Assembly: GCA_044892505.1 (NCBI GenBank)
Contig: CM097882.1
Coordinates: 131,812,001-131,854,251, forward strand
DNA from: Schmidtea nova
Lineage: Eukaryota
Length of the DNA stretch: 42,251 nt
Direction: 5' to 3'
A model generated the notes under the pieces. The model was not told where the DNA came from. It saw only the letters and a list, made by a program, of their open reading frames with translations, and ran no database searches. Positions 1 through 28,597 of this stretch are shown here, in pieces (the stretch's first letter is position 1; each line of letters begins with the position of its first letter). The translations under genes and the position numbers were made by a program.

Positions 1-2378
1 TGTGATATCGTGGGGGGGGGGGTATTTTTTTGAAATAATATATATTTATATATATAAAAAATATTTCCAAAATTAAAATAATAACAAAAATTTTATAATT
101 TTTTTTACAAATTTTAAATTTATAAATTTTTAAGAGTTAGACAATAATAAAATCTCTAATTTTATAATATAAATTTTTGGATTCGAATTTTTATATTTTA
201 AGGAAATATATATATATATATATTAATTGTAAATTTTTCTATGAAATTTCGAATTTGGAATTTTATAAAATGACAAAATCTTTGATATAATAATAATATT
301 TTCGATTTATAATTTGCATGTGTTCCAATACAATTTTTGATTAACAATTTTTTTTATTATAAATTTTCCGCAATATAATAAAAAGTAAATTTTTATTTTT
401 ATGATCAAAAACGAAATCTACATAATAATAAATTTTTATCCACAAATTTCGCAATCCAAATAAGAATTCAATCTAAAAATTCTGTATACTAAATAAAAAT
501 AAAATTAAAATAAATTGTAAATTTTTTCAAAGAATGGTTTTCGACATCAAGTAAGGTGAATTTCGGTTTCGTTCGAGCATGAATTTCCCAACCAAAGTGC
601 GCGAGAATTTTTTGAGACACTCTACTTGGGAACTTCAGGCTCCCGAAAACAAGGTTCGCTGGAGAAAATTATTTAGATAATGAATGAGGTTTAATTCAGA
701 TCAATCAATATTTGTCTTCATAATTCGTTTCATTTCTTGATCATTATATCAGCTTTGAGCATTCTTTCAAACGATTCTCTTTCAATATTAGCTTTTTACT
801 CTACTGGTGTTTTTTGGATAAGATGGTAATTGTTGTGAGAGTGAAGGCGAATGACGAGTAGAATATTCTTGTACAATTAAACTATGTAAATGGAAAAGAC
901 ATTGATGGATGAATTGACATTTACGTTTTTATGCAGTATTAGGTTTTAAGTGCTCATTATGTAAAAAAAAATTATAATTCAAATAAACTACACTTCTATA
1001 AATTTTAGATCATTAATATAACACCTTGCCCTTGGCCAAGCCACTGTTCCCCAGTTGGGATAAAGTGATCATGGATGTTTGGGCGTATCACCTGAACTCG
1101 GAAATATGGGCTGATCGATTACGAATCTAACCAGCGATCCACTCAGGCTACTTCCACCCGCTCGGCACAAGGCCAGAAACAGGTTTCGGGGGGTATGGAA
1201 GAAAAAGGAATTATTACTTTTATCTTGGTACAATAATTATTATTATAAAATAAATTTTTATTCCATCTGAGAGTTTATGACATGATTAAATTCAAAAAAT
1301 GAAAAACAAAGAAAAACAACTTTCATTTAATATTTTGGATAATAATTAAAATTGATGATGATAATATAAGAATAATAATCAATAATATAAAATTAACAAT
1401 AATAAAATAATACTGGGTACGGGGCAGGACCGTGCCTGGCCAGTGTTCATTGCGTGTACAGCACGCAGGTGGCTTAATCAACAAGGAAATTATTAAAGAA
1501 ATTGTTTAATGAATTTGTAAAAAAAATTAGTTAATTGAAATTCTATATAAAAATATAATTTATGGAATTTTCTTAAAAAATGATTCAAATACTATTTGTA
1601 TTCATTTCAGTTTCTTCTTTATTTTTTTCTCTTTAAGAAAGTCATAAGAAATTCTTATAATAGTTGGGCCAGGCAAATCAGTCATCATCTGAAAAGTAAT
1701 ATAAAATCAATAAAATAAATTTACAAAAAACAACAACAAAATAAATTACCATCACCAAGAATGCAGCAAATAAGCGGCAGAATCTAAAAGTAACAAAGCA
1801 TAAATCAAAACAGCAATAACAATAAAAACTCACCCATGCGGAAAGCAGAAAATCTGAAAGGGCCAGCTCAACCTGAACCTTTCGCGATGGTTCATTCAAA
1901 TGACAGATGACGCAGAGCAACCTCGCTGGATACTATGCTCCGGGATCATGACAGGCTCCGGTGTAGCGACACTGGGGAAATCCAGCTCTATCCTCACGCG
2001 CCAGGGAGCGTAACATTGGAGCCCCATCCAGAGCCGAATGATCTCCGATTATGGGAGGTGTTTGCACACAAAGACAAGCTTTGTTGGCACCCGTCCCCGG
2101 AACTATACCAAGCCGACGGAAAGAGACAGGATGACCGAAACGCGGATCAAGAATTGCGACCTTTTTTCTAAGAGGAAGACGTTCGTAGCCGAACACACAA
2201 GCCCTAATGTAATTGTATCATAAATGAATAAATTTTCCTTAAAAAGTCTTGTGATGGTTTCCGAGTGATTGTCGACGAATGTTTGAGTGGATAGGAAGTG
2301 GAAGCATAATAACGACATACCTAGGGACCAACCAACAATTATGTCTTCACAACTCAGATTAAATGCCCCTTTTTGTAG

Positions 2379-2936
2379 ATGAATACGGAAAACTCTCGCG
2401 ATTACAAGAAAGAAGCATGGGAACATAAAGCCCGCTCTAAAGTTCTCGAGAGCCGATTGCGCCGGTTGAACGAAGACCACCAGCGCGTCAAAACCACTTG
2501 GTTTAACCCGGAACGGGTCAAAAAAATACTACAAGCCCGATACCGCGCCGAACGGATGGCCGAAGACCAAGCGAGAGAAATGGCCGCAGTCAAACTGGAA
2601 CTGCATAACTACCTAAAGGTATCCACGCAGGAGTTCGTCACCCAGCAATTACGCTCAATGATCCGGGCGAGTACATTCAATAGATGGGTGGACACGATGG
2701 CCATCACTACAAGTACTCAGACGGAGATAGAGTCGAACTCTACGACGACTACCCCAACCATAGCAACCCCTCTGGAAGGCTCCAAGAGGACAAGGCGTCG
2801 CAACCGCCTGGGAGCGAAGAAACGACGTGAGCGCCGAGCGTATGCCGAACGACTAGGCATTGAAGTAGATTTCTTAAGCGGACTCACTGAAAAACAGTTA
2901 TTGGATGTGATTAACCCGTCGGTATTCCTGAATTGA
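2379..2936 (+). CDS. LTR-encoded 185-aa basic protein (coiled-coil-like N-terminus, Thr-rich linker, Arg-rich motif KRTRRRNRLGAKKRRERR)
   Basis: ATG-to-TGA ORF in a GC-elevated island, intact in both LTRs with 2 aa differences. No family recognised. Confidence 0.55.
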   Translation: MNTENSRDYKKEAWEHKARSKVLESRLRRLNEDHQRVKTTWFNPERVKKILQARYRAERMAEDQAREMAAVKLELHNYLKVSTQEFVTQQLRSMIRASTFNRWVDTMAITTSTQTEIESNSTTTTPTIATPLEGSKRTRRRNRLGAKKRRERRAYAERLGIEVDFLSGLTEKQLLDVINPSVFLN

Positions 2937-3081
2937 AATAAATGTATAATAACTGATTGACTTGATTTGTGTGTCTGTGGCATGTTTGAGAAGTTAAAAA
3001 ACAAAGTAAATTAAACTGATTCATTTGAGGTCACAGGCACCCTAAACATTGAATTTACCCTAGTACAACGAGAGGAGCGCA

Positions 3082-3145
3082 TATAATTGGGACCGAAAGA
3101 AATCCACAGAAACCTTCAATCGGTAGTGGTGGACCCGTGAATAAA
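3082..3145 (+). promoter_or_regulatory. Candidate TATA-like box (TATAAT, 3082) and poly(A) signal (AATAAA, 3140) of the B LTR
   Basis: Motif order and position near the LTR 3' end fit a U3/R boundary; short motifs are weak evidence in AT-rich DNA. Confidence 0.3.
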
Positions 3146-3303
3146 CAAGGGAATAGTAGCCGCAAGGTTGCTCACCTGCCTTGTCATTTCACAACGTTGA
3201 CACAGCACCAACATGATGAGTAGTTAGGGATACATCATGGGTGTCAGCGGGGATATGTTTTTATGTTGGCGAGATCACCCTAACGTGTAAAATCTAAATG
3301 ATC

Positions 3304-3855
3304 TCAGTTGTCCATCTTTGGTGGGCATAAACACGAATGTTTTGATTGCGTTTGAATTGAGAAAAGATGCCACTTTAGGCTGTTGATCGTTCCTTTAGAT
3401 AGGTTATAGAATAAACCTGCTAGATTTGATTTGGCAGACATTAATGCTCCGTTTCCATCCGTGCGACGAACATAGATTAATGAATAGTTTAAATATTGCC
3501 CAAGGAAGTCATTGTAACGACGTCGTAGCAACATACCCAAATTAACATGATGCATAATTCCTCGGTTTGTTAATCCTCCAATCCCATTAGGCCGCTTGTC
3601 TTCCCTATTCTTATCAGTTGGATATATTATAACAGTTGCTCTATCTCCATGTCGATATAAAACATGGGCATGCAATAGTTGTTTGTCTGTAGCAGAACAC
3701 TGATAAATTTGGTAATTCACGATAAGTGTAAAGAAGCATAAAATAATCATAATCAATGTTTTTGAATATCTATTGGATATTAGCTTAATCTGAGGAGGAT
3801 TCATATTGGCATTTCTCCAATTAAAAAGATCCAAAGAGAGAATTGAATTAGGCAT
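3304..3855 (-). pseudogene. Captured histidine acid phosphatase N-terminal fragment in the 3' LTR of A (truncated copy)
   Basis: HVLYRHGDRA...GLTNRGIMHHVNLGMLLRRRYNDFL...IYVRRTD...LMSAKSNLAGLF follows the lysosomal/prostatic acid phosphatase pattern (RHGDRSP...GQLT...G...LRKRY...YIRSTD..RTLMSA..NLAALF). Confidence 0.8.
3312..3316. repeat. Target-site duplication CCATC of element A (partner at 11387-11391)
   Basis: CCATC flanks both ends of A and occurs once at the empty site in the 3' LTR of B (33911-33915). CCATCT (6 bp) is an equally valid reading. Confidence 0.9.
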
Positions 3856-4396
3856 TCAATGTAGAAGTAGATTAGAAACTATTTTATAATACAAAAAACT
3901 CTATTTCAAATAATTCAATAAATTGAATTAATTTCACAAGATATATTTTTTTAAATTAACTCTTAAACCATTTATTTTTTTAAAACAGGAATATTTACCC
4001 CAAGAATTTAAACAACAAACACCAAGTAAATAAATGTAAATGTAAAAAATTAAAATATATCATTTTTACTAATTATTTTGCCAGTTTAACCACAATGACC
4101 GATGTTTTATCGCCTGAAGAATATGAAATTTTGAAAGAAATTAATTCAATTTCTAAATGTAATGATATCAACAATTTCCAAATAATGCAAATTGTTCGAA
4201 ATTTAAACTCAACATATTCTCACGTTAGAATGAAATGTTTAAAAGTAATGGGCCAATTTATGGATCCCTTGAGTCATTTTCCATGTGGTTCATCTAATAC
4301 TTTTGATATTGTTCAGTGGTTTACGCAGGATCAATTTCATGGTTTGTGAAATATCATTTGAGAGAATTTTGGGTATCGGCTTTCTAGACCACTACA
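3319..4396 (-). repeat. 3' LTR of element A
   Basis: Matches 10309-11386 at offset 6990; only 3 substitutions spotted (3453, 3468, 3712). Minus strand starts TGTAGT and ends CACCA. Confidence 0.93.
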
Positions 4397-4408
4397 TTAG
4401 CCCCCATC
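4397..4408 (-). promoter_or_regulatory. Polypurine-tract-like sequence of element A
   Basis: Minus strand GATGGGGGCTAA directly precedes the 3' LTR start TGTAG. Confidence 0.5.
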
Positions 4409-4610
4409 GGAAGATGCGGAGCACATTTTGAATTACTATAATGTAGATACGTAATATAGTAGTTTAGTATATAATAATATGGTATTTTGTAGTGTCCAGA
4501 AAGTATTTGGAAAGAGTCGTGAATGAAATAGAATAACCTGAGAAAGAATTGCGAAAGAAATTTAGGAAACCGAAAAAAAAACTAATAGAACTTGGTGGAA
4601 AGTGGTGCAA

Positions 4611-7600
4611 TTAATTTGAATAGATTCTTATAAGTCTAGTTGTTGAATCCGGTTTTTGATTAATAGAACGGACACGAACCCATTTGTTGTAAGTGACGGA
4701 CTTTGGTTTATTTTGTGTTTGCTTAGCTTTCCTCAAAATGGGTGGTAAACGAAGTACGTCATTCGGTTCTGGGATAAACGGTATGTATTCAGATTTTTCC
4801 GTCATTTTGTTTTCTGCGTCTGATGTTTGAACAATCGGGTATGAAGGTGAGTTGTTGGAAAGATCGTCCTCAGTGGAATTGATAGGGTCATTATCGTTTG
4901 TGTGAGAGTTCGGGATTATATCGGTTTGGGTCGAGAAATTGTCAGGTGGAGGTTCATCATCGAGCAAAACTAAAGCTGGTTTAAGACGGCAGAGGTTAAA
5001 TGTTTGTGTAGCGTCGTTAACGATCACTTTCGCGTTGTTTTCTTTAATCTCGACGAGCTTGTAAGGTCCGGAATATCTTGGCTTTAAACTTGCATCAGTT
5101 ATATTTCTAATATAGACGTGTGATGCATTTTCGAATGTTTTTGGAATGTAAGGTTTATAGGTTGTCGCGGAAGAGAATTCAGGATTAGTGTCGATTGATA
5201 AAAAATGGTCTCTAGCAATCGCGAGATCTTCCAAAGTAGGAGAGTTATCAAAGTCGACAAGTTGACCTGGTAATGATGTGTTTGTACCGAAAAGTAATTG
5301 AGCAGGTGATGATCCTGTAGTCCTAGAAGGTGTATTTCGCCAACCTAATAATACGAAAGGTAAAACCTTTGTCCAACCTTGTTGTTCAGAAAGAATGCCA
5401 AGAGAAGCTTTTAAAGTACGATGGAAACGTTCGACTAACCCGTTTGTGGATGATATGTGGTCGTACGAAGATGTTGTATCCCAAGTTTAGCGGTCAAAGC
5501 TTGAAATAAGTAAGATTCAAACTGTGTTCCGCGATCACTGATGATCGACTTGGGAACTCCATATCGTGAAATCCAATTTTGAATTAGCGAAGTTGCGATG
5601 GTGTTAGAAGAAATGGTGCGTAAAGGAATGACTTCGAACCAACGAGTCTTGCGGTCGATCATGGTTAATAAGTAAGAAAAACCGCAGTCACTTGGGACTG
5701 GGCCGATGATGTCAATGTGTAAGTTTTCGAAACGGTTGCCAGTGGGATAATGAATTATTGGAGGTTTAGTGTGCTTAGTTATCTTAAAACGTTGGCATCC
5801 TATGCATTGTGCAACCCAGAGTTTAACATCATGTCTCATGTTTGGCCAAACTACACACGTGTGTAATAGATTAAAAGTGGCTGAGGAACCTGGGTGGTGC
5901 GTGTTGTGGATAGACAGAAAAGCCAGTTTTCTCATGGAGTCATTCAAGATTGGGCGAAGAGTGCCAGGAAGAGATGAGTCGTAGTGAATTTTGTCTTTGA
6001 TTATGTGTTTGTCGCCAAATTTCGAAATATCAATGGCATCTGGAGGATTATTTTGGAGTTCGTCGATAGAAAATAAAGGACAGTGGATAATTGCGTTTAC
6101 ATTTCGTGAAAGGCAATCAGCTATAATGTTATCACTGCCGGCGATGTGGTATATTTGGCAAGAAAATTCGCTAATATAGCTAATCTGGCGTTGTTGTCTC
6201 GGAGAAGGGTCTTTCATTGAGAACAAGTAAACAAGTGGCTTGTGGTCTGTATGGATGCTAAAAAGACGGCCCTCGAGTAAATGCTTAAAATGTTTAACCG
6301 ACTGGTAAATAGCGAGAAGTTCGCGGTCGAATATTTTTGTTGTGGTGAGGTAAGTTTCTTTGAGTAAAATTCTAGTGGCTCTGGGATGTAACCGTTTATC
6401 TGGTGCAAAACGGCACCGATTGCTATGTTTGACGCGTCTGTGGTTAAACGTAATGGCAAATCTCCTCGTGGATAATGCAAAGTCTGTATGTTTGAAAGGG
6501 CTGTTTTGGCATGCTCAAAAGCGAGCAACGAAGTATCGTTCCAAGGAATTATAGATTTCTTTGGTTTAGAACAGTAACCAGAAAGAGGTGAAAGAATTTC
6601 TGAAATTTTAGGAATAAAACGGTGGCAATAGTTTACTGTTCCCAGAAAACTCCGAAGTTGAGTAACAGTTTGTGGAAGAGGAAACTTAGATATAGTATCT
6701 AGTCTGTCGGATGGTGGACTGACGCCTTGACCCGAGATAATGTGACCTAAAAAACGGACTTCTTCTTTAAAAAATAAACACTTATCTAAATTAATTTGTA
6801 GGTTATTGGAAGAAAGTGCGCAAAGAACTGCATCTAAATGTTTTTTGTGTGTTTCCGCATCCTTAGAACCAATAAGGATATCGTCAATATAAGGAATTGC
6901 GAATGGTAAATCCATTAAAATATGGTCGATGTGTCTTTGAAAGGTTTGAGCGGAATTTCTAAGGCCAAACGGCATGAAAACGTACTCAAAAAGTCCGATA
7001 GAGGTGTTAAAACTGCGGTTTTTTCCACGTCAGATTCTTTAACTGGGATTTGGTGATAGGCCTTAACTAAGTCGATAGTTGAAAATATTTTGGCCTCGGT
7101 AAGTCTGTACAAAATGTCGTTTACTAAAGGCATAGAATATGAGTCGTGAACCGTAATCATATTTAAACGACGATAATCTCCACAAGGTCTGAAAGTTCCG
7201 TCTTTCTTTGGTACGAGATGAAGTGGTGAAGACCATGGAGATTTAGATCTTTTTATAATGCCTTCGTTCAACAAAGTAGCGAATTCGGAGCGAACAAAAT
7301 CTAGTTTTTCGTTCGAAAGAGGGCGTACTTTACAACGTACCGGAAGAGAGTTTGTGGTGTTGATAGTATGGCAGTAAGATGTTACAGAGACTTGCTTTCG
7401 TAAAGGCATTGTTTGTGAAAATGTGTATTTATTTAAAATGTCTGTAGCAATCTTTGGATGAATGGGTTGAATGGCAGTAGATACAGAAACGTCAGATGAG
7501 TCGGAAATGTTGAGTTTTTTTGTGTCAATGATTAAAGACGAATTTGTGTGCGAATGTGTTCTCAAAAGGCGTGAACGACAATCGACCAACAAATTGTGTG

Positions 7601-7960
7601 AACTCAAAAAGTCTGAGCCAAGAATGGGATGGATAACGTCAGCGACACAGAACTTCCATATAAAAGATTGATTTAAAGAAGGAAGAACGAAATTTGCTGA
7701 AAAAGAACCGTGTGTATTTACCATGGTTCCGTTGGCGGCTTTCAAGGTATAAACGGAATCATCGCAAAGAGATTCATATTGTAAAGGAAGAATGGAGAGG
7801 CTGGATCCTGTGTCAACAAGAAAATCGAGAGTACTGCAAAAGTTCGGAGCAACGCTGAAAGAAGGGGATTCAGCTCTCACTAGAAATAAATCGAGTGCAG
7901 GAGGTAATTTGCCATCAACTTCAGCCGCAATGAGTGATGGCATTACAAGTTTTTTTGAAT
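4611..7960 (-). pseudogene. pol: pol of element A (protease, RT, RNase H, integrase with GPY/F), broken by 3 frameshifts (~7005, ~6325, ~5440)
   Basis: FLVDTGSS (PR); WSSPLHLVPKKDG, GDYRRLN, DLVKAYHQIP, MPFGLRN, YIDD (RT); TDASNIAIGAVL, FYSKKL, TDHKPL (RH); HHCC, HIDIIGP, ISDRGTQF, VERFHR and GPYK (IN). Confidence 0.95.
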
Positions 7961-9186
7961 GTTGTTTGGAGAAGATGGTGGGGAATTGTAGGATTTGCAA
8001 CCTACGATGCATTTGTTTGCTTTATCCCCAAATCGTGCGTGATAAATGCACTTATCAATGATTTTTAGGGTAGCTACTTTGTTTCGCCAGCCACATCCTA
8101 TGTTGCAACAATTTGCTTTCGTCCCATATTTGGTATGATAAAAGCAAATGTTTGAATAAGCCGGGGATTTGGAACGTCGTCGGTCAAACGCATTGGAAAG
8201 TGATGCATTTCGAGACGGAGATTTATGACGTTCCAAATGCGAAATACTATCGGTAAGGTCGCGAATGGCGCAAAGAAGAGCGTTTTCTGTTGATGATGGG
8301 ATCGGCGGGCTTGCGATAGGAAGGCTATTGACAGATGAGCCTGGTGTACCACCTAACGGAACAATTTCATGAATTTTGTCCGCCATTTTTGCTAATTCGT
8401 GTATATCTACCGGAGACGATAAAGCAAGTATCTGTTGTGTGTGTGTGTCGGAAGTACACTTAAAAAGAACTGGCGTAGCATGTTTTGGTCGGGTGCTGTC
8501 CCATTTTGCATTTGTTCGAGGTCTGTAAAAGCCTTCTACAAAAATTCTGTCGGCTTACAACTTCCTAAAGATTGGGCTTTGAAATATTTTGAGAATATTT
8601 CCTGTTTGGGGACTTTAAATAAATCCAGCAGTCCTGTGCTGAGCTCCTCAAAAGGGGTTAAAAAGGTTTTTTGCGTTGTGCGGCGAATAACGGCAGAAAG
8701 GCGGCCTAAATGTTCCTGTGGGATGAGAGATAATATTCTATAGAATTTATCTCTTGAAGAAGTAACGCCGCAACTTTCTAAAAGGGCTTCGAGTGTGAGT
8801 AACCAAGTTGATGGTGATTGGTTCTCATCTAAAAAGAACGGACAATTAATATTTTGTCTAGAGTTACTGTCGGAAGAAGCAGCGCCTCGAACATTTCTTT
8901 GCTTTTTAGGCAAAGGTTTGGGCTTTTTATCGTCGTATTCGTTGTCATCATCTATACTTGATGGTGCGCCGCTATACAATGGTACATGACAGAACAGCAA
9001 AGAATCCGAACATATGTCAGAACTTAAAAGTGAGTCCTGATTCCTTAATATTGCGCCATTATAAGATATGTATGTCGGTCCCTCGTACGACAAGCGCTTG
9101 CATATTAATGTAGATAGTTTTGATATAGTCGTGTCCTGGGCTAGTTTGAAGTGGAATGTGAAGGAGGAAACCCTTACGAATATTGA
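7943..9186 (-). pseudogene. gag: Ubiquitin-like domain (8968-9186) fused to Gag of element A; one in-frame TAG at 8536-8538; two CHCC motifs
   Basis: PFFLDENQSPSTWLLTLEALL..CGVTSSRDKFYRILSLIP is the capsid N-terminus typical of this gypsy group. The frame continues past the TAG into ORF 7943-8386 with CFYHTKYGTKANCCNIGC and CIYHARFGDKANKCIVGC. The true start codon is not identified. Confidence 0.8.
7949..7955 (-). promoter_or_regulatory. -1 ribosomal frameshift slippery heptamer A AAA AAC at the gag/pol junction of A
   Basis: Gag frame reads CAA AAA AAC TTG TAA; a -1 shift gives AAA AAA CTT GTA ATG, which is the pol frame. Confidence 0.7.
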
Positions 9187-9540
9187 CAAAGACCTATAGG
9201 ATATGCGACGTAGCTTAAAATTCGGAAGGTTGGGCGGCTCCGTTAATTTTAATAATAATGATTTTAATAATAATGATATAAATAATAATAATATATAATA
9301 ATAGAAATTTAATATAATAAAATATGCTAACGTAACTCCGCAGCGATAATGGGGGCTGATCTTCTGTTCCGAAAAGAGAAGAAAATCTGTTAATATTGGA
9401 ATTTCTGTGACTTTTGAATTTAATGGAGCTTTTAATAGGTAATTATCGTTGTTGGTGTTAAAGTTCATTTTCGAGGGAGCTGGTGAAAAAATTACGATAG
9501 ATTTGATGTTATTGCAATTTTTCATGTTGATTTGTGTTGC

Positions 9541-10845
9541 TTACGATGTTTGACCAATTGAATTGTATCCCTGTGGCTTAACACCTAGCGGTGTGCAAGG
9601 AAACTGCTTTTGAAAGTCATTAATCAATTGTTGAGCGACTTTGGAATCCGTTTGAATAAGAGAAAAATTGGGATTTACTGGCGTTGAATTTACTGGTTTT
9701 GGATTCTGCTGAGGAATCGATCGATTTATCGCTTCTAATATTTGAACGTCGACGTTAATCATTGAAAGAACTGTAGAATTTTGATTCTGTGGAGAGACTG
9801 GAGATGAACTTATTGTTATTGCTGACAGACTCCTATTCGTTGAATTGTTGACGATTAAAGACTGATTAGGGGCTGTAGAGTTGCTAGCATCTGATATATG
9901 ATTGTTAGCTTGTTTGGATTTATCACTTTGTAAGATTAAATTCTGTTGTATTAAATATAAAGCCTGTCGAATGTTAGTGGCTGAGTCTTGTGAACTGGTT
10001 GGAATTCTTATCATTTGCGCACAGTCTAATGGAATTTGAGAGTTTTGATTTACTTGCAATGGGGTTGGAATTATAGGAATTGACGGTTGATTTTGTCGAT
10101 TGATTAAATGCATCGGAGGAGGTGGTGGTTGCATTGCAGCTGCAATTCGCTTAACGACTTCAATTTGACTAAGCGTGCTTGCATTATTAGAATTAGATGA
10201 GTTTAATTGAAGTGAATTTTTCATTATTGCTGGATGTTGTGAGACTTGGGGACGAAATGTTTGATTTCCATCTTGAATTGGAGATTGGTTTTCCTCTGAC
10301 ACCATTTTTGGTGGGCATAAACACGAATGTTTTGATTGCGTTTGAATTGAGAAAAGATGCCACTTTAGGCTGTTGATCGTTCCTTTAGATAGGTTATAGA
10401 ATAAACCTGCTAGATTTGATTTGGCAGACATTAATGCTCCGTCTCCATCCGTGCGACAAACATAGATTAATGAATAGTTTAAATATTGCCCAAGGAAGTC
10501 ATTGTAACGACGTCGTAGCAACATACCCAAATTAACATGATGCATAATTCCTCGGTTTGTTAATCCTCCAATCCCATTAGGCCGCTTGTCTTCCCTATTC
10601 TTATCAGTTGGATATATTATAACAGTTGCTCTATCTCCATGTCGATATAAAACATGGGCATGCAATAGTTGTTTGTCTGTAGCAGAACACTGATAAATTT
10701 GATAATTCACGATAAGTGTAAAGAAGCATAAAATAATCATAATCAATGTTTTTGAATATCTATTGGATATTAGCTTAATCTGAGGAGGATTCATATTGGC
10801 ATTTCTCCAATTAAAAAGATCCAAAGAGAGAATTGAATTAGGCAT
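9541..10845 (-). CDS. 434-aa chimeric ORF: signal/anchor + truncated acid phosphatase + Q/N/S/P-rich low-complexity tail; starts in the 5' LTR of A and reads through the PBS
   Basis: Uninterrupted ATG-TAA frame; hydrophobic LIMIILCFFTLIV, RHGDR motif, then 255 aa of low-complexity host-like sequence. Translation is not demonstrated. Confidence 0.55.
   Translation of the reverse strand: MPNSILSLDLFNWRNANMNPPQIKLISNRYSKTLIMIILCFFTLIVNYQIYQCSATDKQLLHAHVLYRHGDRATVIIYPTDKNREDKRPNGIGGLTNRGIMHHVNLGMLLRRRYNDFLGQYLNYSLIYVCRTDGDGALMSAKSNLAGLFYNLSKGTINSLKWHLFSIQTQSKHSCLCPPKMVSEENQSPIQDGNQTFRPQVSQHPAIMKNSLQLNSSNSNNASTLSQIEVVKRIAAAMQPPPPPMHLINRQNQPSIPIIPTPLQVNQNSQIPLDCAQMIRIPTSSQDSATNIRQALYLIQQNLILQSDKSKQANNHISDASNSTAPNQSLIVNNSTNRSLSAITISSSPVSPQNQNSTVLSMINVDVQILEAINRSIPQQNPKPVNSTPVNPNFSLIQTDSKVAQQLINDFQKQFPCTPLGVKPQGYNSIGQTS
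10295..10304 (-). promoter_or_regulatory. Primer-binding site of element A (tRNA-Leu-like)
   Basis: TGGTGTCAGA begins 4 nt after the LTR CA and is complementary to a tRNA-Leu 3' end (...UCUGACACCA). Confidence 0.65.
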
Positions 10846-11386
10846 TCAATGTAGAAGTAGATTAGAAACTATTTTATAATACAAAAAACTCTATTTCAAA
10901 TAATTCAATAAATTGAATTAATTTCACAAGATATATTTTTTTAAATTAACTCTTAAACCATTTATTTTTTTAAAACAGGAATATTTACCCCAAGAATTTA
11001 AACAACAAACACCAAGTAAATAAATGTAAATGTAAAAAATTAAAATATATCATTTTTACTAATTATTTTGCCAGTTTAACCACAATGACCGATGTTTTAT
11101 CGCCTGAAGAATATGAAATTTTGAAAGAAATTAATTCAATTTCTAAATGTAATGATATCAACAATTTCCAAATAATGCAAATTGTTCGAAATTTAAACTC
11201 AACATATTCTCACGTTAGAATGAAATGTTTAAAAGTAATGGGCCAATTTATGGATCCCTTGAGTCATTTTCCATGTGGTTCATCTAATACTTTTGATATT
11301 GTTCAGTGGTTTACGCAGGATCAATTTCATGGTTTGTGAAATATCATTTGAGAGAATTTTGGGTATCGGCTTTCTAGACCACTACA
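10309..11386 (-). repeat. 5' LTR of element A
   Basis: Direct repeat of 3319-4396, followed on the minus strand by the PBS. Confidence 0.93.
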
Positions 11387-11414: not shown

Positions 11415-11432
11415 TGGGGGCTCAGCCGGGAT
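11415..11432 (+). promoter_or_regulatory. Primer-binding site of element B (tRNA-Pro)
   Basis: TGGGGGCTCAGCCGGGAT matches the tRNA-Pro PBS TGGGGGCTCGTCCGGGAT at 16/18 and lies exactly where identity with the 3' LTR ends. Confidence 0.85.
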
Positions 11433-11968: not shown

Positions 11969-12409
11969 ATGCAGAACAGAGTAAAGGAAATGCAAACGTT
12001 TTTCGAGACAAACAGCGAGACAGTGGAGACAATAATGGGAAAGTTAAGACGACTCGAGGTGGTAGGATATCACGAACCGACAAACAACACAGAAAGAGCC
12101 GAAATGATGATAAACATATGTGAGAAAAGGAGCACAATTGAGACAGCAACGCGATACAAATGGTACTGAGAAAGATTACACCACCCTGAAATGAATATCG
12201 AGTGCCACAGGCTAGAACAACAGTTAACAACAAAACATGACGAGTGGATGAGAATAACAACAGAACATACGAGACAATATCTGACGTGTTATATCTGTGA
12301 AATAAACAAAATACAGATAATGTTGTTGCCATGTGGGCATTTTCGATTCTGTAATGACTGTAAAATAAATGAACGATGTCCTATGTGCAACCTCCCCGTA
12401 TCTGAATGA
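11969..12409 (+). pseudogene. IAP/XIAP-type C3HC4 RING finger ORF (~146 aa) in the B leader; one in-frame TGA at 12167-12169
   Basis: CYICEINKIQIMLLPCGHFRFCNDCKINERCPMC = C-x2-C-x11-C-x-H-x3-C-x2-C-x5-C-x2-C. ORFs 11969-12169 and 12191-12409 are in one frame. Confidence 0.8.
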
Positions 12410-13089
12410 ATAACAGTGTACTTGTAATAAAAATAAAGGTTTTGAACAAGTACAGTTGTTGTTGAAATTATGAGGGTTTAACAATGATTTGGTAAAAATG
12501 ACCTAAGTAATTATGAGCTACTTACGAGTAGTCCGGTAAGCACCCATTGGGGGGAACCAACTGATCAACTTACCCGAGATGTGTAGAAAGTAGCCAATCG
12601 CGGATATTGGAAAGCTCTTGTGATGTGACTGATCACCACATCCCGCATCAGTAGACCAATGCGATCTTTTATATATTTTGGTTGGGGTGAAAGGTAGGGA
12701 CAACTCAACGAGGGTTAGGCGCGCGCAGAAAAATGTAAAAATAGGATGATAAACTGATCAATAAAGAGAGAGAGAAAGCAATGAAATGAGTAAGATGAAT
12801 AGAGAAATGTGGTATATGATGAAAGGCACGTAATCAGCTCGCATAAAGTAAAATCAAGTAGAGAGGTTGATGAATCAATAATAGAATAAAGGGGTGTAAT
12901 GGATGAACCGAGTAAATCGAAAACTCGAGGTCAAATGAATTCCTTGAAAGAAAGGAAATAATAAAAGGGGTCCTAAAGAGAAAGGATTTGCCCATAGTTC
13001 TTGAAAGATAGGACTTAACGAAACGCGACAATAGATTCTCCGAAGAAGCATAAGCAACCACTGAGAGATGATATTTCGAGTTTTCGTTG

Positions 13090-13534
13090 GTGAGCATAGG
13101 TCTCATAGTGAGCATAGGTCTCGTTATTAAACATAACATCATAGTGAGCATAGGTCTCGGCAGTAAACACAACATCGCAGTGAGCACGGTTCTCGTCAGT
13201 AAACCTAAGTCTCGTAGTGAGCAGAGTTCTCATCAATAAACGTAAGTCCTAGCAGCGAACATAGTCCTCATCAGTGAGCGTAGTTCTCATCAATAAACCT
13301 AGTCATCGTAGTGAGCTTAGTTCTCATCAGGAAACATAACTCCTGTAGTAAAAATATTCTTCGTCAGTGAGCATAGTTCTCATCAGGGAACATAGTTCCC
13401 GGAGTGAGCAAAGTTCTCATCAACAAACATAATCTTCATAACAACCATGTGATTACCAGTGAGCATAATTCTCGTCATTGAGCATAGTTCTCGTTAGTGA
13501 GCATAGTTCTCAGCTGTGAGCATAGTTCTCGTCC
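13090..13534 (+). repeat. Minisatellite of ~23 copies of an 18-19-nt unit (consensus GTGAGCATAGTTCTCRTCA, often alternating with a GTAAAC variant)
   Basis: Unit starts seen at 13090, 13108, 13144, 13180, 13217, 13274, 13311, 13367, 13404, 13459. Confidence 0.85.
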
Positions 13535-13876
13535 AAAGTAAAATATTGAGTAAAAGCCCACGAGAAAGACGACGAAGTGAGGCAAAAGAGGACTAAATAA
13601 AGTATAAAACTATCCGGATAGTAGAGATAAACGAGCAATATTGGAGATGAATAAAGGAGAGTAGAGACGAATAATGGATAATGAAGATAAACGACGAATA
13701 GTGAAAATGAATAGCGAATAATGAGGAATAATGGTTGAAAGAAACCGAATTAATAATGAAAGAGTTGAAGGTGCGCACCTGGGTATTGATAAATGCGAGT
13801 AAAGCTGATGACGTAGCCTAATGACGTTAAAGTATGCATACAGAGAGGAGTAATAAAGTAAAGTAAGTAAGTGAAA

Positions 13877-14264
13877 GGTGCTGACTGGAAAACCCAGCAG
13901 ACCATGAGATTCGAGGAGAGTAAAACGAACCGGTTTGGAAAAACAGGTAAAGTGGTAAAGACGCTGGCTGGAAAACCCAGCAGGTCAATGATAACGATCA
14001 GAGAAGATCGAGAGAATAAAAGTGAGTAATAATAGGAAGAATGGTGAAATTGAGGACGCTGACTGGAAGACCCAGCAGGTCAAAAGTGATGATCATCGGA
14101 GTAAAGAGCAGTAAAAGTCGATAGTAAAAGGATAAATGGGGGGGGGTAATAAAAGCGCTGACTGGAAAACCCAGCAGGCTAATGAGAATGAGCGAAGTCG
14201 AGAGTAACAAAAATTCGAGATAAAAGGTGAGAGTAAAGGTGCTGACTGGAAAGCCCAGCAGGCC
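13877..14264 (+). other. Array of five 27-nt bulged RNA hairpins NNN-g-CTG-r-CTGG-[AARRC]-CCAG-CAG-N'N'N'
   Basis: Copies at 13877, 13960, 14055, 14154, 14238; the basal 3 bp differ in sequence but stay complementary in all five. Confidence 0.8.
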
Positions 14265-15160: not shown

Positions 15161-16153
15161 ATGAGTGATCACAGAGAGGATCTGAGAGAAAAATTCAAGG
15201 GTGAACCATTCAATGGAGACGCCAGTAGATTGGACACGTTTCTAAAGGAATTTGGCATATTCGTGGATATATGCGGATGGAGTGCAGAAACGTTAGCGAA
15301 TCGAATCCCGCTATACTTGAAAGATAGCGCATTGAATCTGTATATCGAAAAGAGATCTGGAAGTAGTCCACCCAAAACGTGGGAAACGATCAAGGAGTTC
15401 TTCCAGCAAACGTTTGGGATAAATAAAGTGTTAAACGAAGCATTCGATGAATTCTCAGCAAGAAAACAAAGGAGAAATGAGTCAAATGCGGTGTACGCAA
15501 GTGAATTAAGAAAGTTGGCGAAACTGGCATTCAATAGAGGAAGTCCAGTAGACGAGGAATTGATGACATCATTATTCGTACGAGGTCTCACGAGACCTGA
15601 CATCAGAGCACAAGTGGGATGCAAAGGATGTAAAACAGTAGATGAAGCGTTGGAAGCAGCCAACCTATTCGAATTGCATATAGCAATGAACGACATGAGA
15701 ATTATGGCGGTAATGGAAAAAACGACAGAAGATGAAGAACAAGGAAAAAGAAACATGAATCAAAGCATTCCCCATTCGCAGAGATTGTTCAAAGAACCGC
15801 CAGCGAGGAAAAATAACGGATATATTACAGTAAACACGAATGGAGGAAACAGTTACAACGACAGGCAGAATAGGCAATGTCAGACGTGCGGAAAAAACGG
15901 ACATTGGCAACAAGATTGTTTTCAGAACGTAGCCTGTAAACTGTGTGGACAAAAAGGTCATTCAGAGAATCGATGTTATGGGAAAACGTGTTACACATGT
16001 GGAAAAACCGGACACATGTCAAGAGAGTGTAACCAACAGAGAAGTTGGAAAAAGACAGTGGAAAAAGACAGAATTACGGAAATCGACCAAGTTATGGGAA
16101 TCAGGGTCAACAACGTAACAACCCAAATAGCAGTGCAAACGAAGCCAGTATGA
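15161..16153 (+). CDS. gag: Gag of element B (capsid + three CCHC zinc knuckles); true frame probably shifts at ~16047 into ORF 16045-16332
   Basis: FNGDASRLDTFLKEF..W..IPLYLKDSA..TWETIKEFFQQTF..KQRRNESNAVY..LFVRGL; CQTCGKNGHWQQDC, CKLCGQKGHSENRC, CYTCGKTGHMSREC. Confidence 0.93.
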   Translation: MSDHREDLREKFKGEPFNGDASRLDTFLKEFGIFVDICGWSAETLANRIPLYLKDSALNLYIEKRSGSSPPKTWETIKEFFQQTFGINKVLNEAFDEFSARKQRRNESNAVYASELRKLAKLAFNRGSPVDEELMTSLFVRGLTRPDIRAQVGCKGCKTVDEALEAANLFELHIAMNDMRIMAVMEKTTEDEEQGKRNMNQSIPHSQRLFKEPPARKNNGYITVNTNGGNSYNDRQNRQCQTCGKNGHWQQDCFQNVACKLCGQKGHSENRCYGKTCYTCGKTGHMSRECNQQRSWKKTVEKDRITEIDQVMGIRVNNVTTQIAVQTKPV

Positions 16154-19100
16154 AAGAAGCCAAGTTGAGACAGGAGGTATCCAGATTACACGAGATAATC
16201 GAAAGCATGGCAAAGGGAAACCAGCAAGCTGCTCAACCAAAGATAAACATGATCCAGTTAATAGAAGCTGAGGCCGAAAGAGAAAACAGAGAAAGTCAAC
16301 AGAAACATAATCAAGAATGGGCTAGAATATGACGAGAAGAAGAACAAGTCAGACAGCAACGGTTACAACAGTTAAAAAAGGGAAATCCAAGGATCAACAT
16401 GATGCGAGCAATGATGGAAGAGAAGCAGCAGGATGAGTCGGACGAATTCGACGTTAAAGAGAAAAGAAACGAAGAGCAGAAACAGGAAGAAGTGAATCAG
16501 GAAGTAGAAACCGCAGAGCAGTATCAAAAAAATGAAGAAGTAGAAAAAGAAACAGAAACAGAAAAAGAAACGGAAAAAGAAACGAATCAAGAAGCGGAAG
16601 TGAGAATCAAACAAAGAGGAATGTTGGTGATCATGCCGAAATGATCAGCCGAATTCGTGATCACGTGTTTCGATTCAAATATGATGTAAAAGAAGAGGTA
16701 GGAATACTGTTCAATAAAGTAAATAAGATGATTCCGGGAGTAACGAAACTGCCCAGAGAAGCATTCCTACAAACAGAAGATTTACCCGAAGTAAAGTTGA
16801 AGATGACTGACATATGGGAAGATATGGGAGTAACAGAGACGAAAATAAACGTGACGATCATCAGAGAGGTGGAACCGGAGAAAACCCCACCACCAGTGAA
16901 ACATCAAACTCGGATCAGTCGAATATTCAAAGGAAAAATAAGACGAAGACGGTTGGAAGAAATAGATGAGTTGGAGAAAAGAATGGGAAAAGTTGAAATA
17001 ACGGGAACTGAGAGTGAACTAACACAGGAAGTTAGTAAAAATAAAGCGAGACCAACCGCACATATTGGGATGCTGAGACACCCAAGACAAGAATTGTCAG
17101 ATGAAGAAGACGACAGCGAAGTTAGCAGTCTGGCAGGAGACATGCTAAAGGAATCAGAAAACGAAGATGAAAAGATGGAAGTAACCGAGACAATAGAAAC
17201 GATGTCAGTAAAGGAAGAAGAAATTCAGAGATTGATGAATAACGCATTGGAAGTAATCCATAACGAGGAGTTCATCGACAAGAAGCGATACCGAAAGTTT
17301 ATACGAGCAGTATGGCATATGAAGTATAAAGAATGGTTACAAGAAAGAGAAGTGAGGGTAATACAAGAATACATTGAGAAGCTATTGAAAGAACCACTCA
17401 ACGAATACTTAATACAAATATGGATAAACGAGTGTTCACCGAGAATCTGGATAAAGAACCCAATGACGGATGGAATTTACCGATGGGTTGAAGACAGATT
17501 GGGAAGCTCGTACAAAGACAAATTCATATATTCGGAAAACGGATTGGTGGAAAAAGGAACGCATATGATAAACACGGGCATATGGCCAGGAGAAATAACA
17601 ACGTTATCTATATGCAACTCCAAGAAGGAAGAGAATCTACAAGAAATCGCAAAGAAAGCGAATACGCGTTATGAGACGGGAATAAAACCTCAGTTAGTAG
17701 AGGCAAAAGAAAGAATCTTGGCAGAGAATTTGAATACGATGATAGAACAGATCATCCAACAAATCAAGAAACACCGAAAGGAATTGACGAAAAGCGAGTA
17801 TGAGAATTTGAAGCAGTGTATCGAGAACATACGAGATACCAGTCAAACGAGACATTCAAATTTCAAAACGGACAAGCTAATTACAAAGATGGGAAAAGAA
17901 ATGTTTAAACAAGGAGAGATATCAGATCTGAAGATTACCGTGAGATTACCGAACGAAGAGACAAGACAAATTGAGGTAATACCAGATAGTAAAGTGGGAG
18001 AAATAGTAGATGTCATCAATGAGACGATATTACAACGAGAACGGGAAGACGAATTCGAAGATGACATAGCGATAAAATACAAAGAACATCTACTGAACGA
18101 ACGTGATGAGAGACGAGCGTACAAAATCGGCATATGGGATAATTACCAGGCAATACACGTCATCAGAATGGATGATGTGCCGAGGGTAACACCAAAAGAT
18201 GAAGCAAAGAGAAAGAAACGACAAGAGGACGTTATACGCAAGTTGAGACAGATAGTAGAAATCTATCGGAACTGGCAGATAAAGCCAGAATGGGAGACAA
18301 TATTGGGAGAATTAGATCTTAACAAACGACGATTAACGCCAGTAGAGAAACAATGGGAGGATAAAGAGAAATGTTGGAAAGTGAAGAGGCGTGTATGAAG
18401 AAGATCCGGAAGAAGAAGACAGATATGAACCGAATACGAAACGGATATGTATGGTAACAAGGAAGTTATTACCAACGGACTTAGACGGACCAGAAACAGC
18501 AGTAATATGGGCAAAATTGGAGAGACAGAAAACGGATGAATTAATCGAACTGTTGAGAGGAAATACTCGGGGAAAAAGACAAACAATAAAAGGCTTAGCA
18601 GAATTTATAATCGCAAATGGAGAAGATATAACGAACTTGAGAAAAGTAGCTAAAGCGATAGCAGAATACAAAAGAGTTAACGAGTGGTGTCCAGAGCAAC
18701 TAGACCATGTAGTAAAAAAGTGGAGAAACAGAGAATTCGCAGAGGAAACGCCACAGAAAATACATTTGAGGATAATGTATCCGAATCAGAGAAAAGAAGA
18801 GTTTTGGGTGATGCTAACAGAGAAAGTGAAGAGTGTCAAAGAGAAACTGATGTATGAACTACCATTCCATCTACAACATCAAGGACGATCGTTGGATAAC
18901 AATTTGGAAATCTGGCTGACACCAGTGCAATTGGATTTAATGAATACGCTAACAGTGGCACAGATAGTGGGTCAACCACTGAAGCTGAAAGAAGAAAAGA
19001 AACCGAAAGGAAGCATGAGTTCACCAAGTCCAATGAAGTCAACAATGATCCCAGGAACAAGTTCGGGACAAGCAAGAACAACACCAGCGAAAATAAGAGA

Positions 19101-19584
19101 GAGAACACCTCCAGAAGCGTATGACGTCGATGAGATATTAACAGACAGTGATGAAGCGATAAAGGAATTAACAAAGTTGACTCAAAAACCAACGGCGAAT
19201 ATTTTCGACAGAATAATAGATATGCCAATAACGTCACCAGCGGAAATCGACGATCAAGGAGTGGAACAAGAGGTAGTCATAGAAATAGTAAACGATTCCG
19301 AAGACGAGCAAGAACAACCCCAGTTCACTCAAGAAATGGAAAGATGGTTGGAACAACGAGCAAACGAAGGTAGAGATGTTACAGAAGAAACCGGAAGAGC
19401 AACGAGATTCGTGGAAACCAGAACGGGAATGGAGAAACGACCAAGAGGAAGACCAAAGATAGATCCAGCAACAACAATCCCAAAGACAAGGGAAGAAAGG
19501 AGACAAGAGCAATGGGAGATTTGCTTGAAGAAACTGGATAAAATCGCAGAAATCAGAGGAAAAGAGGAGAATCAAGTTTGTCAA
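16045..19584 (+). pseudogene. Accessory region of the B polyprotein: acidic/coiled segments, up to four ubiquitin-like folds and an AT-hook
   Basis: Long ORFs (16045-16332, 16399-16644, 16641-18398, 18391-19884) with the same codon bias, joined by one in-frame TGA and 1-nt indels. UBL patterns judged by eye; KRPRGRPK at 19435-19458. Confidence 0.6.
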
Positions 19585-19990
19585 GGGGAAGAATGGCTCA
19601 CCAAAACGATAATGAATGTGTTAGCGATAATTGATCCAGAATTAAAGAATTTGTGGCGGAAAAACGAACCTAGTACAAAGGCAAAGATGCTACACAATGC
19701 AATAGCACCGATTATGCCAGAATTAATTAAAGCGAAAACAAAATCGAATCATCTAGATTGGCAAGGAACCACGATGTTAATAAAAAGGCTACTCAACGGA
19801 GCAGAGACGGACAGCAAATATTTAGTGGCAATCTCGTATACGATATACAACCTGTTAACGCTAAGCCAAGGAAGTCCGGAGTAAACTCCGATGGGAAGAC
19901 ATATCAAGATCACGGCGATGATTATCGAGAAAGAAATCGAACCATATATCCTCAGAAAAGGAGGATGGGAAAAGTTCATAAAAGAGAACC
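19585..19990 (+). pseudogene. Bcl-2-like domain spanning the in-frame TAA at 19882-19884
   Basis: BH2-like EKEIEPYILRKGGWEKFIKE vs Bcl-xL NDHLEPWIQENGGWDTFVEL; BH1-like LLNGAETDSKYLVAI vs LFRDGVNWGRIVAF, with matching helix spacing. Confidence 0.6.
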
Positions 19991-20088
19991 AGACAAAAGA
20001 AGGGTCTAACGTTATGAGAAAGAAACTCGAAGGAGTATTGAGAGAAATGGAGAATAGACAAACGATGCAAGGAAATGGAACATCAACG

Positions 20089-22020: not shown

Positions 22021-22459
22021 ATAAAAAGGTTGCTGAAGATACTCGCCAAAATGAAAGGAACAAATGAAGATGTCGGAAGGAAATTCAAAAAAATAATGCA
22101 AGACGAGCAAACAAGACGACAGCTAAAGAAAGAAAAGAAAGGACTATGGGAAAGAGGGAGAGGATATCGAACGCAAGATGACTCAAGCAATGATGACGAT
22201 GACGATGACGATCAAGGAGGACAAGCGAACGTAAACCAGATTCCACAGTACACAGAAAAAAGTGCAGTTGAGAATTGGAGATACAGCGCTCTACCTCAGT
22301 CAATGTACAACGAACCTATGTACAAAGCGAAGCCGAATATGATGCAAATGATGCCGATGACAAGTATATACCCGATAATTCCGGAAGGATGCAAAGTAAA
22401 ACGATGCAGAAGTGTAGACCCGTTGGAAGACACGCACACGATAGCAGTTATGTCCACAA

Positions 22460-28593: not shown

Positions 28594-28597
28594 CAGA

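What the first reader, a model, noticed from the sequence alone, without database searches (positions are those of the whole stretch)
2379..2936. Intact LTR-encoded Arg-rich protein: candidate Rev/Tat-like partner of the hairpin array
Seen: a 185-aa ORF intact in both LTRs while all internal ORFs are damaged. It carries KRTRRRNRLGAKKRRERR (compare HIV Rev TRQARRNRRRRWRERQR) and a hydrophobic C-terminal LGIEVDFLSGLTEKQLLDVI segment. It lies upstream of the candidate TATA, so probably in U3. Known: complex retroviruses encode accessory genes overlapping U3 (nef, MMTV sag), and Arg-rich motifs bind bulged hairpins. Inference: ORF185 and the five hairpins may form a two-component trans-activation or RNA-export system for a very long unspliced RNA. 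The resemblance to Rev is analogy, not homology.
Basis: inference. Interest (0 to 1): 0.72.

Follow-up and report, generated by a model that had tools for sequence, protein, structure and literature searches.

The report
Regulatory genes inside giant retrotransposon LTRs
The terminal repeats of a giant Burro-type retrotransposon carry a strongly conserved protein gene, with a second gene beside it, that is likely made from its own small spliced RNA and likely acts as an arginine-rich switch on the element's RNA, as in complex retroviruses, although its target is untested.

Summary
ORF185 is a real gene. It sits in the ~3.1-kb LTR of a Burro-like giant Ty3/gypsy element with thousands of copies, mostly solo LTRs. 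Across 44 LTRs median dN/dS is 0.07; the Arg-rich stretch is the most conserved part; homologs at 25-28% identity sit at the same place in other Burro families. Intactness in this copy proves nothing: the two LTRs are a recent local duplicate that includes host flank. The U3 claim fails: the conserved CCAAT/TATA lies 1.7-2.0 kb upstream and is deleted from both ORF185-bearing LTRs here. ORF185 looks like a spliced last exon (acceptor at the ATG, AATAAA at the stop). A second selected gene, ORF-A, lies upstream in the LTR and a RING gene beyond it, with similar signals. The protein is predicted to be a coiled-coil dimer with a basic helix; no Rev homology, only a sub-threshold bZIP likeness lost in distant homologs. 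The five hairpins are real but family-specific; a covarying RNA structure at the LTR end is the deeper-conserved candidate target. Best reading: a Rev/Rex-like trans-acting RNA switch (0.35); expression and binding untested.

The parts
2379..2936 (+). ORF185, LTR-encoded gene (copy 1)
32978..33535 (+). ORF185 copy 2, in the recently duplicated block
2350..2378 (+). Pyrimidine tract and AG splice-acceptor-like site directly before the ATG
   Evidence: YAG within 3 nt of ATG in 39 of 44 LTRs; AG offset 0 in 34, 2 in 8; flank otherwise about 50% identical
2391..2615 (+). aa 5-79: predicted parallel coiled-coil dimer interface with a conserved W-F-x-P hinge
2784..2837 (+). aa 136-153: Arg-rich stretch, largely a predicted helix; most conserved segment
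   Evidence: mean pairwise identity 0.93 over aa 134-153 in 111 copies
2853..2912 (+). aa 159-178: short hydrophobic helical module; fits reverse-class export-signal patterns only
2937..2985 (+). AATAAA at the stop codon followed by a GT-rich stretch (polyadenylation-signal-like)
   Evidence: A[AT]TAAA beside the stop in 44 of 44 LTRs; sequence
1662..3316 (+). Left LTR (deleted form; last 17 bp at 11392-11408 beyond a nested element); 4-bp target duplication at 1658-1661 / 33933-33936
32261..33932 (+). Right LTR (same deleted form), preceded by duplicated host flank 31077-32260
29179..31081 (+). Third, partial LTR holding the 1.4-kb segment (29381-30785) missing from the other two
29532..29590 (+). 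Conserved promoter: ATTGG (29532), TATAAATA (29559), initiator-like word
29662..29672 (+). AATAAA joined to a 5' splice-donor site, 94-154 nt after the TATA in the family; the donor is altered in this copy
   Evidence: 41 of 44 LTRs
29725..29865 (+). Conserved structured block just after the donor
   Evidence: identity about 0.8; folding z -3.3 on +, -2.7 on -
30491..31008 (+). ORF-A remnant (second LTR gene, about 190-215 aa in other copies); 3' remnants also at 1858-2168; broken in all window copies
   Evidence: codon periodicity, dN/dS 0.18
3103..3284 (+). Covarying RNA structure at the LTR 3' end, just past ORF185's poly(A) signal (copy at 33702-33883)
   Evidence: 21 of 46 pairs with changes on both sides in 33 sequences; its GCTCACCTG motif (up to one mismatch) in 32 of 32 LTR-PBS loci
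3317..11386 (-). Unrelated nested Ty3/gypsy element with 1.08-kb LTRs and a 5-bp target duplication
11415..11432 (+). Primer-binding site (tRNA-Pro-like, recalled)
   Evidence: 574 LTR-PBS junctions in G000
11969..12425 (+). RING-finger accessory ORF (broken here; 152 aa in other copies) with an AG before its ATG and AATAAA after its stop
13080..13540 (+). Tandem 19-mer array in the leader
13877..14264 (+). Five bulged hairpins (3 bp, bulge, 3 bp, bulge, 4 bp, 5-nt loop) upstream of gag
15161..28593 (+). Broken Burro-type polyprotein: Gag, mononegavirus-like fusion glycoprotein, PR, RT, RNase H, IN, ankyrin repeats; 3' end lost at 28595

Best explanation
ORF185 is a selected accessory gene inside the LTR of a Burro-like giant retrotransposon that is likely expressed as a small spliced LTR mRNA and likely works in trans as a dimeric arginine-rich RNA-binding switch that would let long unspliced RNA read through and leave the nucleus. 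Steps: (1, shown) the protein is under strong purifying selection and is kept in at least four Burro families. (2, inferred from conserved signals) transcription starts about 400 nt into the LTR; a short non-coding exon is spliced to one of several last exons, ORF-A, ORF185 or the RING gene, each with its own acceptor and poly(A) signal, so solo LTRs could make the first two. (3, predicted) ORF185 dimerises through an N-terminal parallel coiled coil and presents two basic helices on flexible linkers. (4, inferred) genomic RNA must skip splicing and pass several poly(A) signals, the problem Rev/Rex-type proteins solve; the most deeply conserved candidate element is the covarying structure just past ORF185's poly(A) signal, which the ORF185 mRNA would lack and read-through RNA would carry. 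(5, inferred) it acts in trans, since ORF-less LTR lineages spread while keeping the RNA elements.
For: Selection: 44 LTRs, median dN/dS 0.070 over 435 usable of 946 pairs (510 saturated at synonymous sites); the other two + frames give 1.3 and 2.1 and the non-coding tail 0.8-0.95; almost no indels over the ORF. Depth: full-length homologs at 25-28% identity ending 467-560 nt before the LTR end; profile hit in 19 of 32 LTR-PBS loci. Exon signals: counts; AG offsets of 0 and 2 nt show that the upstream exon cannot be in frame, so the ATG is the start; ORF-A has AATAAA after its stop in 20 of 21 and an acceptor-like ATG context in 11 of 21; the RING ORF shows both in the leaders read. Protein: helices 9-41, 44-91, 97-120, 143-159, 171-178; homodimer score 0.47 against best control 0.00, runs agreeing in at least 41% of contacts, pLDDT at least 55 (mark reached by 17 of 29 eukaryote homodimers and 0 of 30 single chains). 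R143, R150 and R152 are invariant out to 25% identity. RNA element. Trans action: three related loci (92-94% identical) lack both ORFs but keep promoter and end structure, with hairpin arrays about 3 kb past their PBS; a second short-LTR lineage does likewise. Tat/TAR as hairpin binding by an Arg-rich region: PMC9539567 (passages). Rev, Rex, Rec and Rem as export switches: recalled.
Against: No expression, splicing or binding data. No homology to Rev, Rex or Tat by profile. The motif's best library match is the DNA-binding bZIP basic region. No forward-class export signal over the C-terminal module (patterns recalled, poorly specific). The end structure lies next to the PBS and may serve priming, packaging or translation instead. 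Many Ty3/gypsy elements export unspliced RNA without such a protein (recalled). ORF-less lineages fit 'dispensable' as well as 'trans-acting'.
Confidence: 0.35

Rival explanations
1. ORF185 is a DNA-binding transcription regulator with a bZIP-type basic region and the zipper role moved to the N-terminal coiled coil; it would act on the LTR promoter or on host AP-1-type sites.
For: aa 136-170 match bZIP_1 positions 5-42 (E 5e-4 to 0.06; 11 of 16 members); only PDB matches to the segment are FosB (E 2.9) and BACH1 (E 0.53); profile-profile 58.6% over 20 columns with host bZIPs; the C-terminal profile scores 16 of 19 host bZIP domains above 95% of their shuffles; Asn-x7-Arg spacing kept and N142 invariant in 111 close copies; 10 of 15 sub-cutoff bZIP_1 loci fetched from the genome are ORF185 relatives.
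Against: All scores are below the Pfam cut-off (27.6 bits). The Asn is replaced by H, Q or K in the three distant families, which give no bZIP hit. The spacer to the first Leu is one residue short and the helix breaks after about two heptads. No conserved AP-1/CRE site upstream of the TATA (3, 11 and 0 of 44 LTRs for TGA[CG]TCA, TGAGTAA, TGACGTCA). Hits were picked from thousands of mutated copies.
Confidence: 0.23
2. The basic stretch is only a nuclear or nucleolar targeting signal, or a non-specific nucleic-acid chaperone, and ORF185 works through its coiled coil on host proteins (anti-silencing, cell survival) or in particle assembly.
For: The coiled coil and the segment after it hold 10 of the 14 invariant residues of the deep alignment; Burro elements are rich in host-modulating domains (PMC6431247 section 7) and a Burro1 RING-BIR product is reported to protect stem cells (PMC13465017 passages citing Lee et al. 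2026).
Against: Arg is rarely exchanged for Lys at most motif positions and a Gly is nearly fixed, stricter than import signals usually need (recalled); no partner identified.
Confidence: 0.25
3. One reading: ORF185 and the five leader hairpins form a dedicated two-part trans-activation or export system.
For: Hairpins are real: 5-6 in 11 of 11 leaders, one fold, five interchangeable basal-stem types that keep pairing, 536 exact matches in G000; they would lie only on RNA that reaches gag. Other families also pair an ORF185 homolog with some hairpin array, which could be co-divergence.
Against: Arrays in other families are unrelated in sequence and shape while the Arg/Gly core is kept; their place just before gag is the usual place of packaging signals read by Gag zinc knuckles (recalled; knuckles); they are several kb from the promoter, unlike TAR at the RNA 5' end (PMC9539567).
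Confidence: 0.12
4. The ORF is a chance or selectively neutral frame.
For: Individual copies decay: 11 of 28 loci picked by non-coding DNA are broken and 2 lack it; this copy lacks its promoter.
Against: dN/dS 0.07 with saturated synonymous sites; conservation at 25% identity. Decay after insertion is expected when selection acts on replicating lineages.
Confidence: 0.02

Closest known systems
Burro / GYPSM1 giant gypsy-like LTR retrotransposons of planarians (PMC6431247 section 7)
   Same: About 30 kb; Gag with CCHC knuckles; mononegavirus-like fusion glycoprotein in frame before PR-RT-RH-IN; ankyrin repeats, RING and MATH-like accessory ORFs; thousands of copies.
   Different: The section read names no protein genes inside the LTRs; its figure could not be seen, and Grohme 2018 and Lee 2026 were not available.
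HIV Rev/RRE, HTLV Rex/RxRE, HERV-K Rec/RcRE, MMTV Rem (recalled)
   Same: Small Arg-rich, oligomer-forming protein from a spliced mRNA; long structured cis RNA, in or near the LTR for RxRE and RcRE; unspliced genomic RNA must escape.
   Different: No sequence or profile homology; dimer by a 75-residue parallel coiled coil; gene wholly inside the LTR downstream of the TATA, with its own poly(A) signal; host element is Ty3/gypsy, not a retrovirus.
MMTV sag, lentiviral nef, foamy bel (LTR-overlapping genes; recalled)
   Same: Accessory coding sequence in or overlapping an LTR.
   Different: Those lie in U3, upstream of the main start; here two genes lie downstream of the conserved promoter, likely in a 2.5-kb U5, as alternative last exons.
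Foamy virus LTR with the major splice donor in R (PMC3694450, abstract)
   Same: A splice donor and a poly(A) signal close together near the LTR start site, allowing U1-linked control of 3'-end formation.
   Different: There the donor is upstream of the signal; here AATAAA directly precedes the donor, and further acceptors and signals follow inside the LTR.
bZIP basic region (Fos/ATF/BACH1; viral HBZ, Meq, Zta recalled)
   Same: Asn-x7-Arg spacing with small residues at +3/+4 in this family; basic helix; coiled-coil dimer.
   Different: Below cut-off; Asn lost in distant homologs; no zipper after the basic region; coiled coil is N-terminal and separated by a linker.

Membership tests
Burro-like giant Ty3/gypsy | Gag, env-like fusion glycoprotein, PR, RT, RH, IN in one run, env between gag and pol | tested here: met
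   Pfam order, matching PMC6431247 section 7
Burro-like giant Ty3/gypsy | Ankyrin, RING/BIR, MATH-type extra domains | tested here: met
   Ankyrin; RING ORF and a MATH-like ORF read by eye in relatives; BIR not looked for
Burro-like giant Ty3/gypsy | About 30 kb with multi-kb LTRs, thousands of copies | tested here: met
   LTR 3.0-3.4 kb; LTR pairs about 26 kb apart; 9701 first-look candidates
Burro-like giant Ty3/gypsy | RT phylogeny with named Burro-1 to -4 | not tested
   No reference sequences on hand
Rev/Rex-type export proteins | Homology to Rev/Rex | tested here: not met
   REV only E 0.43-2.4 on aa 42-98; none on the motif; no Rev chain in PDB searches
Rev/Rex-type export proteins | Arginine-rich helical motif | tested here: met
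   67% K+R in aa 136-153; helix 143-159; conserved
Rev/Rex-type export proteins | Leucine-rich CRM1 export signal | tested here: inconclusive
   Reverse-class patterns at aa 159-169 in 37-38 of 39 copies; no conserved forward-class match there (patterns recalled)
Rev/Rex-type export proteins | Oligomerisation | tested here: inconclusive
   Predicted homodimer 0.47 vs 0.00; a model, and a different architecture
Rev/Rex-type export proteins | Made from a spliced mRNA; binds a response element; raises unspliced RNA in cytoplasm | not testable with these tools
   Splice signals conserved but no RNA run listed
bZIP transcription factors | Pfam bZIP_1/bZIP_2 above cut-off | tested here: not met
   Best 20.5 bits among close copies, cut-off 27.6; no ORF185 locus among the 15 over-cutoff loci
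bZIP transcription factors | Invariant Asn-x7-Arg | tested here: inconclusive
   Kept in this and nearer families; Asn lost in three distant families
bZIP transcription factors | Leucine zipper in fixed register after the basic region | tested here: not met
   One residue short, helix breaks after aa 159
U3-encoded accessory genes (sag, nef type) | Gene upstream of the main LTR start site | tested here: not met
   Conserved TATA/CCAAT 1.7-2.0 kb upstream; downstream candidate not conserved; a TATA-less second promoter is not excluded

The most novel reading that the evidence does not exclude
Burro LTRs are self-contained, alternatively spliced two-gene cassettes placed downstream of the promoter, so thousands of solo LTRs can each supply two novel proteins in trans; ORF185 and the covarying RNA at the LTR end form a Rev/RRE-type switch evolved independently in a Ty3/gypsy element, controlling read-through of three poly(A) sites and export of a near-30-kb RNA, and feeding ORF-less parasitic lineages.
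Probability: 0.25. Interest if true: 0.85.

Novelty: new variant of a known kind. Interest (0 to 1): 0.62.

Why it matters
Solo LTRs are normally treated as non-coding relics. Here most of several thousand LTRs are solo copies that keep a promoter and one or two protein genes without known relatives, so the usual way a host disarms an element (recombination to a solo LTR) would leave its regulators on. The layout also poses, and makes testable, how a near-30-kb retroelement RNA stays unspliced and passes several poly(A) signals. If ORF185 is an RNA switch it would be a Rev-like system outside the retroviruses; if it binds DNA it would be a bZIP-like factor spread by a transposon in an animal whose Burro products are reported to affect stem cells. 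Caveat: Lee et al. 2026 (Dev Cell) and Grohme et al. 2018, with their supplements, could not be read and may already describe these ORFs.

Tried and rejected
Protein databases: no relative of ORF185 at E <= 0.001 (1.84 billion representatives), none for the C-terminal module among longer proteins, none for ORF-A; Atlas gave only scores under 0.8 or none; viral contigs none. Folds: no Foldseek PDB match for the ORF185 model; ORF-A model is low confidence (pLDDT 52), best Z 4.2, no viral match at E <= 0.001. RNA: no RNA holder listed; four runs of unstated kind cover host repeats too and list no GT-AG joints; no evidence either way. Rfam: only AT-repeat microRNA artefacts in four loci. No tRNA gene in the window. 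Selection on single inserted copies: private pN/pS 0.33 against 0.14 for shared changes, but the sample favours intact copies and covers 111 of thousands, so inconclusive. AP-1/CRE sites in the promoter: not conserved. The AATAAA inside the LTR-end structure is kept in only 21 of 33 sequences, so not taken as the genomic poly(A) signal. The two pseudoknot helices I drew there are 93% paired but have 0 and 1 two-sided changes: unproven. Likenesses to lambdoid N and Tat basic motifs, XRE helices 4-5, UBM and Maf helices are recalled only; Pfam and PDB searches did not return them. Earlier scan notes: none. Literature searches listed no paper on LTR-internal genes of Burro elements; only listings were seen for most.

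Full report
Setting. The window holds a damaged giant LTR retrotransposon: Gag with zinc knuckles, a mononegavirus-like fusion glycoprotein followed in frame by protease and RT, then RNase H, integrase and ankyrin repeats. This order is the signature described for planarian Burro elements (PMC6431247, section 7 read whole), so the host is most likely a planarian (inference). An unrelated Ty3/gypsy element is nested at 3317-11386.

The observation. ORF185 is at 2379-2936 and 32978-33535. A genome search gave 150 scored matches of 9701 candidates at 72-100% identity. I fetched 64 longer loci; 63 held the ORF and 44 had both LTR ends at 2950-3450 bp (one dropped by hand for a mis-called start); 40 of the 44 are solo LTRs with an exact 4-bp target duplication. 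The true LTR therefore begins at 1662, not 478. Intactness in this copy is thus one event and unremarkable.

Is it a gene? Yes. Pairwise NG86 over the 44 LTRs gives median dN/dS 0.070 (435 usable of 946 pairs; 510 saturated at synonymous sites), 0.060 with singletons masked; other + frames 1.3 and 2.1; reverse frames 1.3, 2.9 and 0.17 (the last shares third positions); the non-coding tail 0.78-0.95. These copies were picked by protein score, which favours intact ones (41 of 44 without stops); among 28 loci picked by non-coding DNA, 15 are open, 11 broken and 2 lack the ORF, as expected if selection acts on replicating lineages. In 111 distinct copies aa 134-153 is the most conserved segment (0.93). 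Using the primer-binding site to reach other families (574 junctions), homologs at 25-28% identity appeared at the same LTR position; 19 of 32 such loci hit the profile, and 14 of 20 loci of an old family carry the C-terminal module. No database relative was found.

How it is likely expressed. In the 44 LTRs, TATAAATA (39), ATTGG upstream (41) and an AATAAA fused to a GT donor 94-154 nt later (41) are conserved; the ORF starts 1664-1984 nt after the TATA, has YAG within 3 nt of its ATG (39) and A[AT]TAAA at its stop (44). A second gene, ORF-A, lies between: codon periodicity, dN/dS 0.18, AATAAA after the stop in 20 of 21 and an acceptor-like ATG context in 11 of 21; it has no known relative or clear fold. 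A 152-aa RING ORF about 560 nt past the LTR end shows the same two signals. I read this as one promoter, one non-coding exon and alternative last exons. Three related elements lack both ORFs and the signal at ORF185's stop yet keep the TATA (3 of 3), the AATAAA-donor (2 of 3) and the LTR-end block, which suggests that genomic RNA ends at the donor-side signal and that both genes lie in a long U5; three loci are thin support, and a TATA-less second promoter is not excluded. Foamy viruses control LTR polyadenylation through U1 binding to a donor in R (PMC3694450, abstract), a partial precedent. None of this was seen in RNA: no RNA run was listed. In this window neither ORF185 copy has the promoter.

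The protein. AlphaFold2 gives long helices (9-41, 44-91, 97-120), a low-confidence Thr-rich linker, a basic helix (143-159) and short C-terminal helices (pLDDT 71, pTM 0.29). A two-copy model scored 0.47 against a best control of 0.00, with a parallel interface over aa 5-79, at least 41% agreement between runs and pLDDT at least 55; the mark was reached by 17 of 29 eukaryote homodimers (1 of 7 without an older solved relative) and 0 of 30 single chains. The Arg-rich motif has no profile match to Rev. Its only recurring match is the bZIP basic region, always below cut-off; the profile scores 16 of 19 host bZIP domains above 95% of their shuffles (one further domain was not scored). Against membership: the spacer is one residue short, no zipper follows, and the Asn is lost in distant homologs, where R-hydrophobic-G-x-basic-x-R-R remains. 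The hydrophobic tail fits only reverse-class export patterns (37-38 of 39, patterns recalled).

Candidate RNA partners. The five hairpins are real: one fold (z -1.7 to -3.8), 5-6 copies in 11 of 11 leaders of one subfamily, interchangeable basal stems, 536 exact matches. But in 20 leaders chosen for lacking an exact match, none had this array, and families with distant ORF185 homologs carry unrelated arrays. A 180-nt block just past ORF185's poly(A) signal is 92-96% identical within the family and covaries across families: 94% of cells paired, 21 of 46 pairs with two-sided changes, above all 500 shuffles and all slid controls (relatedness inflates such counts, and the structure was derived from this alignment). 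Its core motif is present in 32 of 32 LTR-PBS loci, including ORF-less lineages. It matches no Rfam family. It is as deeply kept as the basic motif, would be absent from ORF185 mRNA and present in read-through RNA, as a response element should be; but its place beside the PBS fits priming, packaging or translation equally.

Verdict. Shown: a selected, widespread, unannotated LTR gene with a sister gene, a conserved promoter upstream, conserved exon signals and a covarying LTR-end RNA. Predicted: coiled-coil dimer. Inferred: spliced LTR mRNA (about 0.75), action in trans. It works like complex-retrovirus accessory gene expression but is not a member of the Rev or bZIP families. Papers seen: PMC6431247 (section 7, passages), PMC13465017 and PMC8532177 (passages), PMC3694450 (abstract, outline), PMC9539567 (passages); Lee 2026 and Grohme 2018 not held, so prior description of these ORFs cannot be excluded.

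Noticed in passing
window 30491-31008 and 1858-2168; intact form e.g. L077, L122: ORF-A: a second LTR gene, Trp-rich with a basic N-terminus, dN/dS 0.18, no homolog or clear fold; one locus (L272) keeps ORF-A next to the LTR end without ORF185.
   Followed up: partly
window 3103-3284; alignment A4: Covarying multi-helix RNA at the LTR end with fixed words CTTCTATCG and GCTCACCTG and two possible pseudoknots; kept in all Burro lineages seen; no Rfam match.
   Followed up: partly
L260, L263, L264: A multi-copy lineage whose LTR has both ORFs replaced by about 435 nt of unrelated DNA but keeps promoter, donor, end structure and leader hairpins.
   Followed up: partly
L253, L254, L257-L259, L275, L276, L281, L282; leaders L283, L284, L287, L288, L298, L299: Short-LTR (about 0.94-1.43 kb where measured) lineage without LTR ORFs or gag in the first 5 kb, sharing the end structure with the L255 family and carrying a 56-bp tandem array: likely non-autonomous.
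   Followed up: partly
L285, L286, L290-L294, L297: Each Burro family has its own tandem hairpin arrays before gag, unrelated between families.
   Followed up: partly
window 3317-4396, 9541-10845 (-): The nested gypsy element's LTR holds a captured histidine-phosphatase fragment (Pfam His_Phos_2), which opens a 434-aa ORF; its gag-side ORF has a weak ubiquitin-like match.
   Followed up: no
window 14790-15160; L163-L173: The gag frame is open 121-149 codons upstream of the first ATG, with no ATG: possible non-AUG start or spliced entry.
   Followed up: no
window 12640-12705: CCAAT, TATA-like and donor-like words in the leader; the flanking word searched for was not found in five other leaders, so an internal promoter is unsupported.
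   Followed up: partly
window 28596-32260: Two template-jump-like junctions (28595/28596 with 4-nt microhomology; about 31081) join the truncated internal region to copies of the 5' flank and LTR.
   Followed up: partly
window 1-1176, 35988-37144; L031, L092: A very high-copy AT-rich host repeat flanks the element and is tandemly duplicated upstream of the window.
   Followed up: no
L092:31-8300: Long host-gene-like ORFs (one with FKBP/TPR-like motifs by eye, repeated twice) inserted within a Burro LTR locus.
   Followed up: no
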